5,601 nucleotides of DNA from positions 1 through 5,601 of IMG/VR virus record IMGVR_UViG_3300015185_000041; one strand, given 5' to 3'. Made by a program: the position numbers and the translations under genes. This DNA comes from a virus (taxonomy: Duplodnaviria > Heunggongvirae > Uroviricota > Caudoviricetes). This document shows, in pieces, positions 1 to 5,601 of the stretch; the first letter of the stretch is position 1, and the number at the start of each line of letters is the position of its first letter. Under the pieces are notes generated by a model. That model worked only from the letters and a program-made list of their open reading frames with translations, was not told where the DNA came from and made no database searches.

Positions 1-202
1 CCTCATTTCCCCTTAACGCCGGGGTAGCGGAACAAAAACCTGCTGCATAGTTATTAAAGTTGAACCCTGCCGTCATGTTCTTACGCCTCGGGCTGGCTAC
101 TTAACCCCTGACCACTGCCGGGTAACTCGAAGTATTGCCTGGCGTTCTGTGGGGCGGGGTGGGTTGATGAATGAACAATACCACTACTATTTAATTATGT
201 AA

Positions 203-215
203 ATAGCAGTGCTAT
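203..215. promoter_or_regulatory. OL-like operator: perfect 13-bp palindrome ATAGCA-G-TGCTAT
   Basis: Same palindrome family as the two sites in the repressor/cro intergenic region (1301-1313 and 1326-1338). It lies just past the terminator of the repressor operon, the position of OL in lambda. Confidence 0.5.
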
Positions 216-227
216 TATCGTGGCAAG

Positions 228-250
228 AAAAAAACCACCCGAAGGTGGTT
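228..250 (-). terminator. Intrinsic terminator closing the leftward regulator-antitoxin-toxin operon
   Basis: On the minus strand the RNA reads AACCACC-UUCG-GGUGGUU followed by a U run (plus-strand A run 228-234). GC-rich stem with a UUCG tetraloop, 15 bp past the toxin stop codon (265-267). Confidence 0.8.
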
Positions 251-264
251 GTTGACAGGAAGGA

Positions 265-555
265 TTAACAGGTTTTGTTTGGATACTGTCTTCGTGAGTG
301 AACTACATTTACGATCTCGATGTTAGATGCTGTTACTCGGTAAAGTATTATGTAGTTAGGATGAGTCACTATCTCACGAAGACTTGGAACTCTTTCGCTC
401 GGTGGGTACAGATAAGGGTGTTCAGTAAGTGACAAAACTGATGTTTCAATGCGTATTTTTAGTCTACGTGCAGCGGGAGGGTTTTCCTTAGCAATATAGG
501 CTACGATCTGACGTAAATCATCACGTGCAGAAGGTAGCCATAAAATGGGCAGCAT
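265..555 (-). CDS. parE: ParE/RelE-superfamily type II toxin (96 aa)
   Basis: Size and motifs (LPILWLPSARDDL..., ...HPNYIILYRV..., ...IEIVNVVHSRRQYP) fit ParE-family toxins. Its ATG shares one base with the TAA stop of the upstream antitoxin ORF (TAATG), the typical antitoxin-then-toxin coupling. Confidence 0.75.
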   Translation of the reverse strand: MLPILWLPSARDDLRQIVAYIAKENPPAARRLKIRIETSVLSLTEHPYLYPPSERVPSLREIVTHPNYIILYRVTASNIEIVNVVHSRRQYPNKTC

Positions 556-746
556 TACTCACTCCTGTTCGTTGCAGCTAATTGAGCAATAAGGTTTTCC
601 ATTTCAGCCATTACTTCGTCATGTGGAATTGCAGGACGGGGATCTGAGAGGCTTGCTGCCACTTTGGTTCGCAACCATTCGTTATAGCTGTTTTCTTGTT
701 CGACTGTTTCAAATTCAGAAATTATCGGGGAAAGGGCTGTACTCAT
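555..746 (-). CDS. paaA: Small type II antitoxin (63 aa), PaaA/ParD-like
   Basis: 63-aa ORF directly upstream of and coupled to the ParE-like toxin. Strong RBS (GGAGG, about 7-nt spacer). It resembles, from memory, the PaaA antitoxins of PaaR-PaaA-ParE systems; the gene symbol is a recollection, not a search result. Confidence 0.6.
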   Translation of the reverse strand: MSTALSPIISEFETVEQENSYNEWLRTKVAASLSDPRPAIPHDEVMAEMENLIAQLAATNRSE

Positions 747-763
747 GTTTTTACCTCCTCAGA

Positions 764-1264
764 TTAGGCGCGACGACCCTTTTGCGCAGCTAGCCATCGC
801 GCAACGATTTCTTCAATTGATTCTTTTTTCTCCTTCATTTCCTTAAGCATTTTCTCTTTATCTTCTTTGGGGAAAGCCCTGAACGTCTGGAGCAAATCCC
901 GCTCCATGGGGTCTATATTAAACGGAAGTTCGTTTTCCGATTGTTCCATATCTGCAGATATAGTGACAACATTGTCCTCCCCAGATTCTTGGGGATACAT
1001 CCTTACAATTTGTAACAACTCGGCCATATCTGGTCTGATTGACTCGGGAGGAACTTGCAGCAACCCTGCGAACTTGATAACAGCCTCAAGATTTAAAGGT
1101 GTCTGACCATTTAGATAATGGCTTACAGCTCCCTGTGTCGAAAATCCCAGAATTTCTGCCGCACGCTCTTGGGTTAACCCTAGTTGATTTTTTTTCGCCG
1201 TCCAGATTTCTTTCAGTCTCTGGGCGGCTTGCAGGTCGATCTCTGACAGGGATTTTCTTTTCAT
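764..1264 (-). CDS. HTH (XRE/Cro-CI family) regulator, prophage repressor-like and PaaR-like; no S24 peptidase domain (166 aa)
   Basis: Helix-turn-helix motif LGLTQERAAEILGFSTQGAVSHYLNG in the N-terminal half. The C-terminal half is acidic and lysine-rich and lacks an Ala-Gly cleavage site or Ser/Lys peptidase motifs. It faces a cro-like gene across an operator-bearing intergenic region and sits 17 bp upstream of the antitoxin on the same strand. Confidence 0.75.
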   Translation of the reverse strand: MKRKSLSEIDLQAAQRLKEIWTAKKNQLGLTQERAAEILGFSTQGAVSHYLNGQTPLNLEAVIKFAGLLQVPPESIRPDMAELLQIVRMYPQESGEDNVVTISADMEQSENELPFNIDPMERDLLQTFRAFPKEDKEKMLKEMKEKKESIEEIVARWLAAQKGRRA

Positions 1265-1371
1265 ACCTTCAATTCTAATAAGATTATTAATCTCTTTGAA
1301 ATAGTGATGCTATTTACTTTTAAAAATAACAATGCTATTAATGATCGTGATGACATCACATGAGGTGAACA
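1265..1371. promoter_or_regulatory. Divergent immunity control region (OR-like operators with candidate PR and PRM promoters)
   Basis: Operator-like palindromes ATAGTG-A-TGCTAT (1301-1313) and ATAACA-A-TGCTAT (1326-1338). Candidate rightward promoter: -35 TTTACT (1313-1318), 17-bp spacer, -10 TATTAAT (1336-1342). Candidate leftward promoter on the minus strand: -35 TTCAAA (plus 1295-1300), 17-bp spacer, -10 TAGAAT (plus 1272-1277), which would start the transcript at or near the repressor AUG. Two further palindromes: TAATAA-GA-TTATTA (1276-1289) and GTGATG-A-CATCAC (1347-1359). Confidence 0.55.
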
Positions 1372-1647
1372 ATGAATCTTGGAGAATATTTGCATCATTC
1401 CGGTATAACTCAGAAGCATTTTGCTGAAATTGTTGGGGTAACCCAAGGGATGGTAAGCCATGTCATTACCGGACGGGCGAAACTTACGGGGAAAAAAATT
1501 TTACGCTGGTGCGAAGCAACAGGCTGGATAGTAACTCCGCACGAGATTGATGGCAGTACTTATCCCAACCCAACCGACGGCTTACCTGTCGAGTATCAGG
1601 CTAACACACAACCAGAGGCGGGGGTGATTCATGAAAATCAAGCATGA
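1372..1647 (+). CDS. Cro-like HTH regulator, YdaS family (91 aa)
   Basis: Helix-turn-helix motif (ITQKHFAEIVGVTQGMVSHVITG), RBS GAGGTG upstream, divergent from the repressor across the operator region; small size and position match cro. Confidence 0.7.
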   Translation: MNLGEYLHHSGITQKHFAEIVGVTQGMVSHVITGRAKLTGKKILRWCEATGWIVTPHEIDGSTYPNPTDGLPVEYQANTQPEAGVIHENQA

Positions 1648-2056
1648 ACACATCCGCATGGCAATGAATGCCTGGGCGCATCCGGACGGCGAAAAAGTAC
1701 CGGCTGCGAAAATTACCAAAGCGTATTTCGAGCTGGGAATGACGTTCCCGGAACTGTATGACGACAGCCATCCGGAAGCCCTGGCCCGTAATACCCAGAA
1801 AATTTTCCGTTGGCTGGATAAAGACACCCCTGATGCTGTTGAAAAAATGCAGGCTCTGTTACCGGCGATCGAAAAGGCGATGCCGCCTTTGCTGGTGGCC
1901 CGTATGCGCAGCCACAGTTCTGAATATTACCGTGAGATCGTCGAACGGAGGGATCGGCTGGTGAAGGATGTCGATGATTTTGTTGCGTCAGCGGTTGTTT
2001 TGTATGACCAGATGAATCGCGGCGGCCCGGCAGGGAATGCTGTGGTGATGCACTAA
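1631..2056 (+). CDS. ydaT: YdaT-family protein (CII-like regulator position, 141 aa)
   Basis: Overlaps the cro-like gene by 17 nt and occupies the cII slot. Size and N-terminus (MKIKHEHI...) match my recollection of Rac-prophage YdaT; the name is from memory only. Confidence 0.55.
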   Translation: MKIKHEHIRMAMNAWAHPDGEKVPAAKITKAYFELGMTFPELYDDSHPEALARNTQKIFRWLDKDTPDAVEKMQALLPAIEKAMPPLLVARMRSHSSEYYREIVERRDRLVKDVDDFVASAVVLYDQMNRGGPAGNAVVMH

Positions 2057-2063
2057 AAGCACG

Positions 2064-3041
2064 GTGTTCGGGGGTTTTATGAGCAGCAAGCTTCATGGTC
2101 TTGTCTGGGAAGGGTGCGCCTTCACCGGCATGATCTTATCCAGGGTGGCGGTTATGGCCCGTCTTGCAGACTACAGCAATGACGAGGGCGTGTCATGGCC
2201 TGCCATTGAAACTATCCGGCGTCAGATCGGTGCAAGAAGTGAATCCACAGTGAAATCGGCTATTGCAGAACTGGCGAAAGAGGGCTGGCTGACGAAGGAA
2301 GAGCGTAAGGTCGGTGGGCGTAATGTAAGCAATATCTATCGGCTTAATGTGGAAAAACTCGAAGCAGCTGCGGCGGCGGCGCGTGAGTCATATAAACCGA
2401 AAAGAAAAATTAGCCCGGCAAAAAATGACCCGTTAACAGTTGACCCGTCAAATATTGACCCCTCAACGGTTGACCCGTCAAATTTTGATGGATCAACTGT
2501 TGATAAAAAACTGCCGATTAGGGGGCCGATGATTGACCCCGATCCGTCAGTATTAAAACCTGATCCGTCAGATAAAAGATCTTCTTGTCCGGACGCTTCG
2601 CAACCGGACCCGCAGACGGCTGAACAGGATTTTTTAACCCGACACCCTGACGCGGTTGTGTTCAGTGCGAAAAAACGCCAGTGGGGAAGTCAGGAAGATT
2701 TGGTGTGCGCACAGTGGATCTGGGGACGAATCGTGAGTCTTTACGAGCAGGCGGCCAGCTATGATGGCGAGATCACTAGACCGAAAGAACCCAACTGGAC
2801 AGCATGGGCCAATGACGTTCGCACAATGCGGATGCTGGATGGCAGAACTCACAGACAAATTTGTGAAATGTTTGGGCGTCTCCAGCGGGATTCGTTCTGG
2901 GTAAAAAACATCATGAGTCCGGCAAAACTCCGGGAAAAATGGGATGAACTGGTTATCCGCCTGGGGCGTTCGCCTGCGCAGCGTTGCGTGAATCACATTT
3001 CTGAACCGGACACTGAAATTCCGCCGGGCTTCAGGGGGTAA
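2064..3041 (+). CDS. Replication initiator / replisome organizer: N-terminal winged-HTH, iteron-encoded linker, C-terminal DnaT-like domain (325 aa)
   Basis: The ORF opens at GTG 2064; ATG 2079 (MSSKLHG...) preceded by GGGGG is an alternative start. The repetitive linker (DPLTVDPSNIDPSTVDPSNFDGSTVD) is encoded by tandem DNA repeats, as ori-lambda lies inside O. The C-terminal tail ...VNHISEPDTEIPPGFRG closely matches the recalled E. coli DnaT tail ...VNTVSEPDSQIPPGFRG. Confidence 0.75.
   Translation: MFGGFMSSKLHGLVWEGCAFTGMILSRVAVMARLADYSNDEGVSWPAIETIRRQIGARSESTVKSAIAELAKEGWLTKEERKVGGRNVSNIYRLNVEKLEAAAAAARESYKPKRKISPAKNDPLTVDPSNIDPSTVDPSNFDGSTVDKKLPIRGPMIDPDPSVLKPDPSDKRSSCPDASQPDPQTAEQDFLTRHPDAVVFSAKKRQWGSQEDLVCAQWIWGRIVSLYEQAASYDGEITRPKEPNWTAWANDVRTMRMLDGRTHRQICEMFGRLQRDSFWVKNIMSPAKLREKWDELVIRLGRSPAQRCVNHISEPDTEIPPGFRG
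2426..2515. repeat. Putative replication-origin iterons: five to six tandem 15-bp repeats (core TTGAC-CC-GTCAA)
   Basis: Head-to-tail 15-mers: TGACCCGTTAACAGT, TGACCCGTCAAATAT, TGACCCCTCAACGGT, TGACCCGTCAAATTT, TGATGGATCAACTGT, then a degenerate TGATAAAAAACTGCC. Related CCGTCAG copies occur at about 2541-2570. An A-rich tract (about 2395-2425) flanks them on the left. Confidence 0.7.
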
Positions 3042-5257: not shown

Positions 5258-5460
5258 TTGCGGGGAAATCTTAGTTAAGTAGAATGACTGCGGGTGCTTG
5301 AGGCTATCTGTCTCAGGCATGAACACCAAAAGGCAGATAGAGAAAAGCCCCAGTTAACATTACGCGTCCTGCAAGACGCTTAACATTAATCTGAGGCCAT
5401 ATCTATGCGACACATAGAGATTAGCCTCTTACGGACCGAAAGGTCAAGGAGAAGCAGGCT
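5258..5460 (+). promoter_or_regulatory. Hok mRNA leader: candidate promoter and structured 5' UTR
   Basis: Candidate promoter: -35 TTGCGG (5258-5263), 16-bp spacer, -10 TAGAAT (5280-5285). 10-bp stem at 5304-5313 paired with 5331-5340, 17-nt loop. Hairpin 5402-5418 sequesters the AUG of the short upstream ORF. Confidence 0.4.
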
Positions 5461-5464
5461 ATGA
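5405..5464 (+). CDS. Short upstream ORF (19 aa) coupled to hok; possible Mok analogue
   Basis: ATG 5405 with GAGG 8 nt upstream; TGA stop overlaps the hok ATG (ATGA). Product MRHIEISLLRTERSRRSRL. Confidence 0.3.
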   Translation: MRHIEISLLRTERSRRSRL

Positions 5465-5601
5465 AGCAGCAAAAGGCGATGTTAATCGCCCTGATCGTCA
5501 TCTGTTTAACCGTCATTGTGACGGCACTGGTAACGAGGAAAGACCTCTGCGAGGTACGAATCCGAACCGGCCAGACGGAGGTCGCTGTCTTCACAGCTTA
5601 C
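5461..5601 (+). CDS. hok: Hok/Gef-family type I toxin, truncated by the window edge
   Basis: MKQQKAMLIALIVICLTVIVTALVTRKDLCEVRIRTGQTEVAVFTAY is near-identical to recalled HokD/HokC sequences. RBS AAGGAG with 9-nt spacer. About four codons are missing beyond position 5601. Confidence 0.85.
   Translation, partial: MKQQKAMLIALIVICLTVIVTALVTRKDLCEVRIRTGQTEVAVFTAY

What the first reader, a model, noticed from the sequence alone, without database searches (positions are those of the whole stretch)
1265..1371. Promoter geometry suggests a leaderless repressor mRNA with an activating operator at about -42
The best leftward promoter (-35 TTCAAA at plus 1295-1300, -10 TAGAAT at plus 1272-1277) would start transcription at or within a few nt of the repressor AUG (1264); the only Shine-Dalgarno-like sequence is too close to the ATG to work. 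Lambda cI mRNA from PRM is likewise leaderless. Operator 1301-1313 is centred about 42-43 bp upstream of that start, the class-II activation position used by lambda CI at OR2, and it also abuts the -35 of the candidate rightward promoter. Operator 1326-1338 overlaps that promoter's -10. The geometry implies a bistable switch with positive autoregulation.
Basis: inference. Interest (0 to 1): 0.5.

Follow-up and report, generated by a model that had tools for sequence, protein, structure and literature searches.

The report
Lambda-style leaderless prophage repressor switch
This is the on/off control region of an E. coli prophage, built almost base-for-base like phage lambda's classic switch, including a repressor message that starts at its own start codon; it is a sound but unsurprising new example of a well-studied design.

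Summary
TTCAAA (1300..1295), a 17-bp spacer and TAGAAT (1277..1272) lie on the minus strand. The repressor ATG (1264) follows 7 nt later, and no usable Shine-Dalgarno sequence is present. Palindromic operators lie at 1300-1314 and 1325-1339.

In eight non-redundant relatives (down to 45-50% protein identity) the hexamers, the 6-7 nt gap to the ATG and the operator arms are conserved. The gap sequence itself is not. Operators sit near -68, -43 and -20 from the ATG; in lambda they sit at -66, -42 and -19.

The repressor is a hybrid. Its N-terminal domain matches lambda CI in sequence and predicted fold. Its C-terminal 44 residues match PaaR2 of O157:H7 prophage CP-933P. It is co-transcribed with a paaA-parE toxin-antitoxin pair.

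For CP-933P, a leaderless repressor mRNA, activation of PRM at low repressor level, an OL/PL region and bistability were shown experimentally in 2021. RacR and lambda cI are also leaderless. This is therefore a heteroimmune new member of a known kind. Transcription starts and activation remain unmeasured for this element.

The parts
764..1264 (-). Repressor gene (166 aa). It has a lambda-CI-like N-terminal DNA-binding domain, a disordered linker and a PaaR2-like C-terminal helical hairpin. It is the first gene of the repressor-paaA-parE operon.
   Evidence: ORF. Pfam HTH_3 only, no S24 peptidase. Lambda CI N-terminal domain E=9e-10 and 31% identity by BLASTP. C-terminal 44 aa are 55% identical to CP-933P PaaR2. 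AF2 model: five-helix N-terminal domain, residues 92-112 disordered, helices 119-129 and 133-165. The top 10 PDB fold matches are all lambda CI N-terminal domain.
1262..1266 (-). Start codon (1264..1262) and predicted transcription start window (1264-1266). The mRNA would be leaderless or carry at most a 2-nt leader.
   Evidence: The -10 ends at 1272, and the A of the ATG is the 8th nt after it. Relatives have 6 or 7 nt here with no sequence conservation. The first 15 nt of the mRNA are predicted unpaired.
1272..1277 (-). -10 hexamer TAGAAT of the leftward (PRM-like) promoter
   Evidence: Invariant in 5 E. coli variants. TA[GAT][AG]AT is conserved in all 8 non-redundant family members.
1295..1300 (-). 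-35 hexamer TTCAAA of the leftward promoter, with a 17-bp spacer
   Evidence: Invariant in variants. TTCAAA, TTTAAA, TTTTAA or TTTAAG in relatives, with 16-18 bp spacers.
1277..1291 (.). Weak third operator (OR3-like), ATTAATAATCTTATT on the minus strand (7/10 to consensus). Its centre at 1284 is about -20. It fills the PRM spacer and touches the -10.
   Evidence: The same position holds an 8/10 site in the 79% variant and 9/10 sites (ATTAGTAAAACTATT) in L008, L011 and L012.
1300..1314 (.). Operator A (OR2-like), AATAGTGATGCTATT. Its centre at 1307 is -43/-42 from the predicted start. It overlaps the PRM -35 and the PR -35.
   Evidence: The outer arms are invariant and the centre varies. Its register relative to the -35 is the same as lambda OR2.
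1325..1339 (.). Operator B (OR1-like), AATAACAATGCTATT. Its centre at 1332 is about -68. It overlaps the -10 of the rightward promoter.
1313..1341 (+). Rightward promoter (PR-like): TTTACT (1313-1318), 17 bp, TGC-TATTAA (1333-1341, extended -10). The predicted start is near 1348.
   Evidence: It runs parallel to PL, TTTACA-17-TGG-TATTGT. TATTAAT is invariant in variants and present in L008 and L011. It fell below the scan's rule because the last base is A.
1372..1647 (+). Cro-like (YdaS-position) HTH gene, preceded by the Shine-Dalgarno sequence GAGGTG at 1362-1367
   Evidence: It is 47-82% identical to the Cro-like genes of family loci but only 24-27% to CP-933P YdaS. It shares the TQG(A/M)VSH recognition helix with the repressor.
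177..216 (.). OL-like operator pair: AATACCACTACTATT (177-191) and AATAGCAGTGCTATT (202-216), 25 bp apart
   Evidence: (inverted repeat I1 with 1300-1339). Outer arms conserved in variants. An equivalent pair lies downstream of the repressor operon in six of the seven relatives scanned (a single strong site in L013).
175..203 (-). PL-like leftward promoter, TTTACA-17-TATTGT with TG. It drives the ydfA/DUF1391-dicB early-left genes.
   Evidence: Hexamers invariant in variants. Downstream genes are listed.
233..250 (-). Intrinsic terminator that ends the repressor-paaA-parE operon
   Evidence: conserved in variants
265..746 (-). paaA-like antitoxin (555-746) and parE-like toxin (265-555), co-transcribed with the repressor
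   Evidence: Pfam PaaA2 and ParE_toxin. PaaA2 structure 3ZBE E=2e-22. ParE is 65% identical to ParE2.
1624..1641 (.). YdaT operator (GTGATTCATGAAAATCAA) at the cro-like/ydaT junction. This is the PRE-like region, a route to leadered repressor transcripts.
   Evidence: The CP-933P site is TTGATTCATGAAAATCAA. Footprinted by YdaT in PMC9986795. YdaT is about 99% identical to 8BT1.

Best explanation
The 107-bp spacer between the repressor and the Cro-like gene is a lambda-type tripartite right operator. The repressor is a lambda-CI-like DNA-binding domain joined by a flexible linker to a PaaR2-type helical oligomerisation domain. It binds 15-17 bp palindromes of consensus AATAG-N5-CTATT.

Sites B (1325-1339) and A (1300-1314) cover the -10 and -35 of the rightward promoter and shut off the Cro-like/YdaT/replication genes. 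The same pair of sites at 177-216 shuts off the leftward early promoter.

The dimer at site A sits in the same register to the leftward -35 hexamer as lambda CI at OR2. From there it most likely stimulates RNA polymerase through sigma-70 region 4, giving positive autoregulation. At high concentration the weak third site (1277-1291) is filled and blocks the same promoter.

Transcription from this promoter starts at, or 1-2 nt before, the A of the ATG. The repressor-paaA-parE mRNA is therefore leaderless and its first cistron is translated without a Shine-Dalgarno sequence. The Cro-like protein has a near-identical recognition helix and competes for the same sites, which makes the module bistable. 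YdaT, acting at the site at 1624-1641, provides an alternative, leadered route to repressor synthesis.

Shown here: the sequence features, their conservation, and the homologies. Inferred: the transcription start, the binding order, activation, looping and bistability.
For: Geometry is given. In lambda the annotated operators are centred at -66, -42 and -19 from the cI ATG. In the window and seven relatives they are at -66 to -68, -42/-43 and -19/-20 (after correcting three mis-called starts). Alignment of eight non-redundant family members has as invariant columns the operator arms, the -10 and the ATG; the 6-7 nt discriminator shows no conserved column, so there is no conserved Shine-Dalgarno sequence. 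Motif hits at 9/10 or better in 4-13 kb of each relative fall, with one stray exception in the 12.9-kb L005, only at OR and at a second pair (24-26 bp apart) just after the repressor operon; L013 has a single strong site there. The N-terminal domain matches lambda CI by sequence (E=9e-10) and by fold (TM 0.81-0.93, including 1RIO, the CI-NTD/sigma-4/DNA complex). Acidic residues are kept in all members at the positions aligned with lambda E34 and D38, which I recall from the literature as the positive-control patch. The recognition helix TQGAVSHYLN is invariant and similar in the Cro-like protein. The Cro-like proteins co-vary with the repressor domain. The C-terminal domain is 55% identical to that of PaaR2, which is reported to octamerise. 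Experimental precedents exist in PMC8630535 and PMC9638921.
Against: No transcription start, binding or expression data exist for this element. The -10 lies 7 nt rather than 6 nt from the ATG, so a start at G1266 or T1265 (a 1-2 nt leader) is as likely as an exact start at A1264. The leftward promoter is already a 9/12 match, better than lambda PRM at 8/12, so it may need little activation. The acidic residues in helix 2 are common in XRE-type HTH domains and are not specific proof of a sigma contact. The C-terminal domain is unrelated to lambda CI's, so cooperativity between sites 25 bp apart (24 in lambda) and OL-OR looping are assumed. The third site is only 7/10 in this window.
Confidence: 0.7

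Rival explanations
1. The switch and the leaderless mRNA are real, but the repressor at site A only represses or is neutral. Autoregulation would then be purely negative, with no class-II-like activation.
For: The leftward promoter is a fairly good 9/12 match and may be constitutive. In CP-933P the activation was a modest effect of about 4-fold, inferred from leaky expression. In the passages of the RacR paper that I read, no activation is mentioned. The 17-bp site overlaps the -35 hexamer by 2 bp.
Against: The register to the -35 is identical to lambda OR2, where activation is established. The N-terminal domain is a lambda CI homologue superposable on the CI-NTD/sigma-4 complex 1RIO, and both acidic positive-control positions are retained across the family. 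The position at about -42.5 is held to within 1 bp in relatives whose flanking DNA has diverged.
Confidence: 0.2
2. The repressor is mainly made from a leadered transcript that starts further upstream (a PRE-like promoter near the YdaT site, or another start in the spacer). The hexamers next to the ATG would be incidental AT-rich sequence or part of an operator.
For: The promoter match alone is at chance level. The -10 overlaps the OR3-like operator arm CTATT/TAGAAT, so its conservation could reflect operator function. A YdaT site that supports a PRE-type promoter is present. RacR has several starts.
Against: The -35 hexamer and the 16-18 bp spacing are conserved as well, and the -35 is not part of the third operator. 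There is no conserved ribosome-binding sequence in the 6-7 nt before the ATG, and the AAGG lies 1 nt from it. The ATG keeps a fixed 6-7 nt distance from the -10 even where gene callers chose other starts. The same arrangement was proven leaderless in CP-933P, lambda and Rac.
Confidence: 0.08
3. The palindromes are read mainly by the Cro-like protein or by the PaaA-ParE complex rather than by the 166-aa repressor.
For: The Cro-like protein has an almost identical recognition helix. According to a review of Hallez 2010, PaaA-ParE partially represses the paaR promoter.
Against: PaaA has no DNA-binding motif. Relatives with no paaA-parE cargo, or with different cargo, keep the same operators. The operators co-vary with the invariant repressor recognition helix. 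Shared CI/Cro operators are the norm, so Cro-like binding is expected alongside repressor binding, not instead of it.
Confidence: 0.02

Closest known systems
Phage lambda CI / OR-PRM-PR (with OL-PL)
   Same: The N-terminal DNA-binding domain is homologous (E=9e-10; fold TM up to 0.93). Both have three operators, at about -67/-43/-20 here against -66/-42/-19 in lambda. The OR2-like site overlaps the PRM -35 by 2 bp. Both have a -10 of TAGAAT/TAGATT placed 7 or 6 nt before the ATG, a leaderless geometry, an A-rich 5' coding region, a second operator set at a leftward promoter, and cargo genes downstream of the repressor (the rexAB position).
   Different: There is no S24 peptidase/RecA-cleavable C-terminal domain; instead a 45-residue helical hairpin related to PaaR2. 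Operator sequence differs: AATAG-N5-CTATT against TATCACCGC-type half-sites. The strong sites are 25 bp apart rather than 24. Only two OL sites were detected. CII is replaced by YdaT. The cargo is a paaA-parE toxin-antitoxin pair.
PaaR2-PaaA2-ParE2 / YdaS-YdaT immunity region of cryptic prophage CP-933P (E. coli O157:H7; PMC8630535)
   Same: Gene order and promoter logic are the same. Both have a three-gene repressor-antitoxin-toxin operon. ParE is 65% identical and PaaA is homologous. YdaT is about 99% identical. The repressor's C-terminal 44 aa are 55% identical. The -10 lies 6 nt before the ATG. For CP-933P, a leaderless mRNA, PRM activation at low repressor level, a regulated PL and bistability were shown experimentally.
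   Different: The repressor DNA-binding domains show no detectable similarity by BLASTP. The Cro-like proteins are only 24-27% identical. The operators differ (GTTTAGTAA-type repeats; 97-bp spacer against 107 bp). The window is therefore a heteroimmune mosaic relative, not the same element.
RacR-YdaS-YdaT of the Rac prophage (E. coli K-12; PMC9638921)
   Same: Both have a repressor divergent from ydaS-ydaT. The strongest racR promoter gives a leaderless transcript. The repressor is not SOS-cleavable.
   Different: No sequence similarity to RacR was detected in my searches. The operators are different, and several racR promoters are reported.

Membership tests
Lambda CI-type repressor | N-terminal five-helix HTH domain homologous to the lambda CI N-terminal domain, with an N-terminal basic arm | tested here: met
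   phmmer E=9e-10 to 7JVT, 1LMB and 1RIO. BLASTP 31% identity over 157 aa. The AF2 model's top 10 PDB matches are all lambda CI N-terminal domain, rmsd 1.1-1.6 A. MKRKS aligns with lambda STKKK.
Lambda CI-type repressor | C-terminal S24 (LexA-like) autocleavage and dimerisation domain | tested here: not met
   Pfam finds only HTH_3 and HTH_31. The C-terminus is a helical hairpin similar to PaaR2. Of the homologues listed, only one, the most distant (P0031), has PF00717 on record.
Lambda-type OR/PRM architecture | Three operators between divergent promoters; the middle one is centred about 42 bp upstream of the repressor start and overlaps the -35 edge | tested here: met
   The third site is weak (7/10) in the window and 8-9/10 in relatives.
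Leaderless repressor mRNA (lambda cI, PaaR2, RacR) | Transcription start coincides with the A of the start codon | not testable with these tools
   Only the geometry can be tested: the -10 ends 7 nt before the ATG (6-7 nt in all relatives) and there is no conserved Shine-Dalgarno sequence. The O104:H4 dRNA-seq data (PMC5066232) could settle it.
Positive autoregulation through sigma-70 region 4 (lambda CI positive-control patch) | Acidic residues at positions equivalent to lambda E34 and D38, and activation measured in vivo | tested here: inconclusive
   E33 and E37 align with the lambda positions E34 and D38 (the role of those positions is from my own knowledge of the literature, not from a paper read here). 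They are acidic in all family members. Such residues are common in XRE HTH domains, and activation itself was not measured.
PaaR-PaaA-ParE three-component toxin-antitoxin system | A regulator gene followed by a paaA antitoxin and a parE toxin in one operon | tested here: met
   Pfam PaaA2 (E=1e-21) and ParE_toxin (E=7e-18). The genes are contiguous on one strand, with a terminator after parE.
PaaR-PaaA-ParE three-component toxin-antitoxin system | Regulator homologous to PaaR2 over its whole length | tested here: not met
   Only residues 123-166 align with PaaR2 residues 80-123 (55% identity). BLASTP finds no similarity between the N-terminal domains. The relation to PaaR1 could not be checked because Hallez 2010 is not held.
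PaaR2-type oligomerisation and OL-OR looping | Octamer formation that bridges distant operator sets | not testable with these tools
   Two operator pairs lie about 1.1 kb apart and the C-terminal domain is homologous. Octamerisation is reported for PaaR2 only.

The most novel reading that the evidence does not exclude
This repressor belongs to an undescribed family of natural hybrids. The lambda-CI DNA-binding domain and lambda's OR geometry (to within 1-2 bp, including the leaderless start) are kept fixed. The C-terminal module is swapped: a PaaR2-type hairpin, a hairpin plus a second HTH domain, another short helical tail, or S24 peptidase. The interval between the repressor gene and OL serves as a slot for interchangeable toxin-antitoxin cargo (paaA-parE, higBA, hipA-like). 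If so, PRM activation and operator spacing are properties of the N-terminal domain and sigma-4 geometry alone. Cooperativity or looping can then be supplied by an unrelated 45-residue domain in a repressor that cannot respond to RecA.
Probability: 0.45. Interest if true: 0.4.

Novelty: new member of a known kind. Interest (0 to 1): 0.25.

Why it matters
It adds a fourth independent case to lambda cI, PaaR2 and RacR. This supports the view that a leaderless repressor message and an activating operator at about -42 are general design features of lambdoid immunity regions. It also shows that the geometry goes with the lambda-type DNA-binding domain even when the rest of the protein is replaced. 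In practice, gene callers mis-place the start codon of such repressors (three of six relatives examined), and this immunity type is present in about 1.4% of complete E. coli genomes, including O104:H4. It does not open a new question.

Tried and rejected
1. Same element as published CP-933P: rejected. The repressor N-terminal domain, the Cro-like protein, the operators and the spacer length all differ.

2. The perfect palindrome GTGATGACATCAC (1347-1359) as a fourth operator or leader hairpin: not conserved in the 91% and 79% variants.

3. An alternative rightward promoter, TTGAAA-17-TTTAAA: it lacks the -11 A, and its -10 is hit by T>C changes in two variants. TTTACT-17-TGcTATTAA is preferred because it parallels PL.

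4. Special RNA structure at the mRNA 5' end: none found (z=0.08).

5. The phage collection holds no phage with this immunity region, only a 10% match to Rac-SA53.

6. PaaR1 identity: Hallez 2010 is not in the library and reviews give no sequence, so this is unresolved.

7. The O104:H4 dRNA-seq paper analysed only the pAA plasmid, so it gives no start-site information for the locus.

8. No PaaR2 sequence matched in the PDB sequence search, so the C-terminal domains could not be compared structurally.

Full report
**What the window is.** The 5.6-kb window is the immunity and early region of a lambdoid prophage of E. coli. Bases 150-1700 are 100% identical to chromosomes of O104:H4 and other strains. 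The immunity-specific part (764-1647) occurs in 77 of 5426 complete genomes and in no sequenced phage.

The gene order is as follows:
- parE-like toxin, 265-555 (minus strand)
- paaA-like antitoxin, 555-746 (minus strand)
- 166-aa HTH repressor, 764-1264 (minus strand)
- 107-bp spacer
- Cro-like HTH gene, 1372-1647 (plus strand)
- ydaT, 1631-2056, about 99% identical to the crystallised CP-933P YdaT
- O-like replication gene

**Checking the observation.** Every coordinate in the finding is correct.
- On the minus strand, TTCAAA (1300..1295), a 17-bp spacer and TAGAAT (1277..1272) form the only promoter-like hit that the scan places in the spacer.
- The repressor ATG follows 7 nt later.
- The only purine-rich run, AAGG, ends 1 nt before the ATG.
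- The two palindromes are at 1301-1313 and 1326-1338 and extend to 15-17 bp (AATAG-N5-CTATT).

The promoter match alone is at chance level (4 found against 3.5 expected in 1.7 kb). The motif with two mismatches is also unremarkable (6 against 2.8 expected). With one mismatch or fewer there are four hits against 0.17 expected, and none of 2000 shuffles reached four (the pattern was defined after seeing the data). Those four hits form two pairs, each exactly 25 bp apart.

The second pair (177-191 and 202-216) lies just beyond the terminator of the repressor operon. It overlaps a leftward promoter, TTTACA-17-TGgTATTGT, in the same way that the first pair overlaps the rightward promoter, TTTACT-17-TGcTATTAA.

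**Comparative test within E. coli.** Variants at 98%, 92%, 91% and 79% identity keep both leftward hexamers, the spacing to the ATG and the outer arms of all four operators. Their substitutions fall in the operator centres and downstream of the rightward -10.

**Comparative test in distant relatives.** I fetched six more distant relatives of the repressor. They have 45-50% identity over the whole protein, or 63-75% over the N-terminal domain only. All six sit divergently from a Cro-like gene followed by ydaT.
- Anchored on the start codon, each has a TTCAAA, TTTAAA, TTTTAA or TTTAAG -35, a 16-18 bp spacer and a TAAAAT, TAGAAT or TATGAT -10. The -10 ends 6-7 nt before an ATG that opens an M(K/N/S)(R/K)K... 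N-terminus.
- In three loci the database start codon was wrong. In L010 an in-frame ATG lies 6 nt after the -10. In L012 and L013 the called start lies inside the promoter spacer, and the true start encodes MKRKSLSEQD or MKRKNLSEQD.
- In the alignment of eight non-redundant sequences, the invariant columns are the operator arms, the -10 and the ATG. The 6-7 nt between the -10 and the ATG share no conserved base, so there is no conserved ribosome-binding site.

**Operator positions.** Operators lie at -66 to -68, -42/-43 and -19/-20 from the A of the ATG in every member. The annotated lambda operators are at -66, -42 and -19 from the cI ATG. In both lambda and the window the 17-bp middle operator overlaps the -35 hexamer by 2 bp.

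The third, OR3-like site is weak in the window (1277-1291, 7/10) but scores 8-9/10 in relatives.

Across 4-13 kb of each relative, the only sites scoring 9/10 or better are the OR cluster and a pair 24-26 bp apart just downstream of the repressor operon. The exceptions are one stray hit in the 12.9-kb L005 and a single strong downstream site in L013. This holds whatever cargo lies between them.

**The proteins.** The repressor's first roughly 90 residues are homologous to the lambda CI N-terminal domain (E=9e-10; 31% identity). An AlphaFold model built from a 17-sequence family alignment has mean pLDDT 76. It shows five N-terminal helices, a disordered linker (residues 92-112) and a C-terminal helical hairpin. 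Its ten best PDB matches are all lambda CI N-terminal domain (TM 0.81-0.93 for the domain-only entries, rmsd mostly 1.1-1.9 A). They include 1RIO, the CI-NTD/sigma region 4/DNA complex.

Residues aligned with lambda E34 and D38 are acidic in all family members. I know these two positions from the literature as the positive-control patch. This is consistent with activation through sigma region 4, but it is not specific proof.

There is no S24 peptidase domain. The last 44 residues are instead 55% identical to the C-terminus of PaaR2. I obtained the real PaaR2 locus by rebuilding the 5' end of its gene from the published primers.

The recognition helix TQGAVSHYLN is invariant in the family and nearly the same in the Cro-like protein, TQGMVSH. 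The Cro-like proteins co-vary with the repressor domain: 47-82% identity within the family, against 24% for CP-933P YdaS. Repressor domain, Cro-like protein and operators thus form one coherent immunity module, distinct from that of CP-933P.

**Mechanism.** The best-supported reading is a lambda-type switch.
- Repressor at sites B and A blocks the rightward promoter, and at the 177-216 pair it blocks the leftward early promoter.
- The dimer at site A, in lambda OR2 register, stimulates the leftward promoter.
- The weak third site shuts that promoter off at high repressor concentration.
- Transcription starts at 1264-1266, so the repressor-paaA-parE message is leaderless or nearly so. Its first 15 nt are predicted unpaired.
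- The Cro-like protein competes for the same sites.
- YdaT, acting at its retained operator (1624-1641, one outer mismatch from the footprinted CP-933P site), gives a leadered alternative transcript.

The sequence features, their conservation and the homologies are shown here. The start site, binding order, activation, looping and bistability are inferred.

**What is already known.** Jurenas et al. 2021 (PMC8630535) reported the following for CP-933P:
- By 5' RACE, N-terminal sequencing and mass spectrometry, paaR2 is leaderless "like cI".
- Low PaaR2 levels raise PRM activity about 4-fold and repress PR.
- A PL promoter with OL sites is regulated by PaaR2 and YdaS.
- YdaT activates a PRE-type promoter.
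- The locus is bistable.

RacR's strongest promoter also gives a leaderless transcript (PMC9638921). The window is therefore a heteroimmune relative of a characterised system. Its DNA-binding domain and operators resemble lambda more than CP-933P does. I found no paper on this variant. Whether it corresponds to PaaR1 could not be checked.

**Verdict.** This is a new member of a known kind and of modest interest. The most useful by-product is the family-level picture: lambda's OR geometry is held to within 1-2 bp while C-terminal domains and toxin-antitoxin cargo are exchanged. An existing O104:H4 dRNA-seq dataset could test the predicted start sites without new experiments.

Noticed in passing
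window 5292-5601: There is a hok/sok type I toxin-antitoxin locus here: an Rfam sok match (RF01794, 106.7 bits, 5292-5463) followed by a Hok/Gef-family ORF that starts at 5461 and runs off the window. The prophage therefore carries a second, unrelated addiction module.
   Followed up: partly
L008 3112-3839; L011 3287-4860; L009, L010, L012 (no cargo); window 265-746: The interval between the repressor gene and the OL operator pair holds different cargo in different relatives: paaA-parE here, HigB plus an HTH antitoxin in a Salmonella relative, HipA_2 plus DUF3037 in another, and nothing in others. It behaves like the lambda rexAB slot. OL-OR distances range from about 0.55 kb to 3 kb.
   Followed up: partly
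L010 1868-1880; L012 and L013 2501-2531: The database start codons of three of the six distant repressor homologues are probably wrong. One is 12 nt too short and two are 30 nt too long. Gene callers do not expect a leaderless start directly after a -10 hexamer.
   Followed up: yes
P0014, P0019, P0020 (L011-L013): Relatives of 244-255 aa keep the lambda-like N-terminal domain and the PaaR2-like C-terminal hairpin but carry a second HTH domain inserted between them. Its role is unknown.
   Followed up: no
window 1347-1359: A perfect 13-bp palindrome, GTGATGACATCAC, lies at the predicted start of the Cro-like gene's leader. It is not conserved in the 91% and 79% variants, so it is probably not functional.
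   Followed up: yes
window 1620-1650: There is a mosaic junction here. Sequence from about the YdaT operator rightwards is near-identical to CP-933P (YdaT 99%), while everything to the left (Cro-like gene, operators, repressor N-terminal domain) is unrelated. The one mismatch in the YdaT operator (G for T at 1624) is at its outer, left-hand base.
   Followed up: partly
window 2405-2501: Four or more iteron-like 15-bp repeats (core TGACCCGT/TTGACCC) and a 33-nt imperfect inverted repeat lie inside the O-like replication gene. This is probably the prophage replication origin, as in lambda, where the origin lies within gene O.
   Followed up: no
window 1631-1647: The Cro-like gene and ydaT overlap by 17 nt in different frames. 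In some variants the Cro-like ORF is annotated 4 codons shorter.
   Followed up: no
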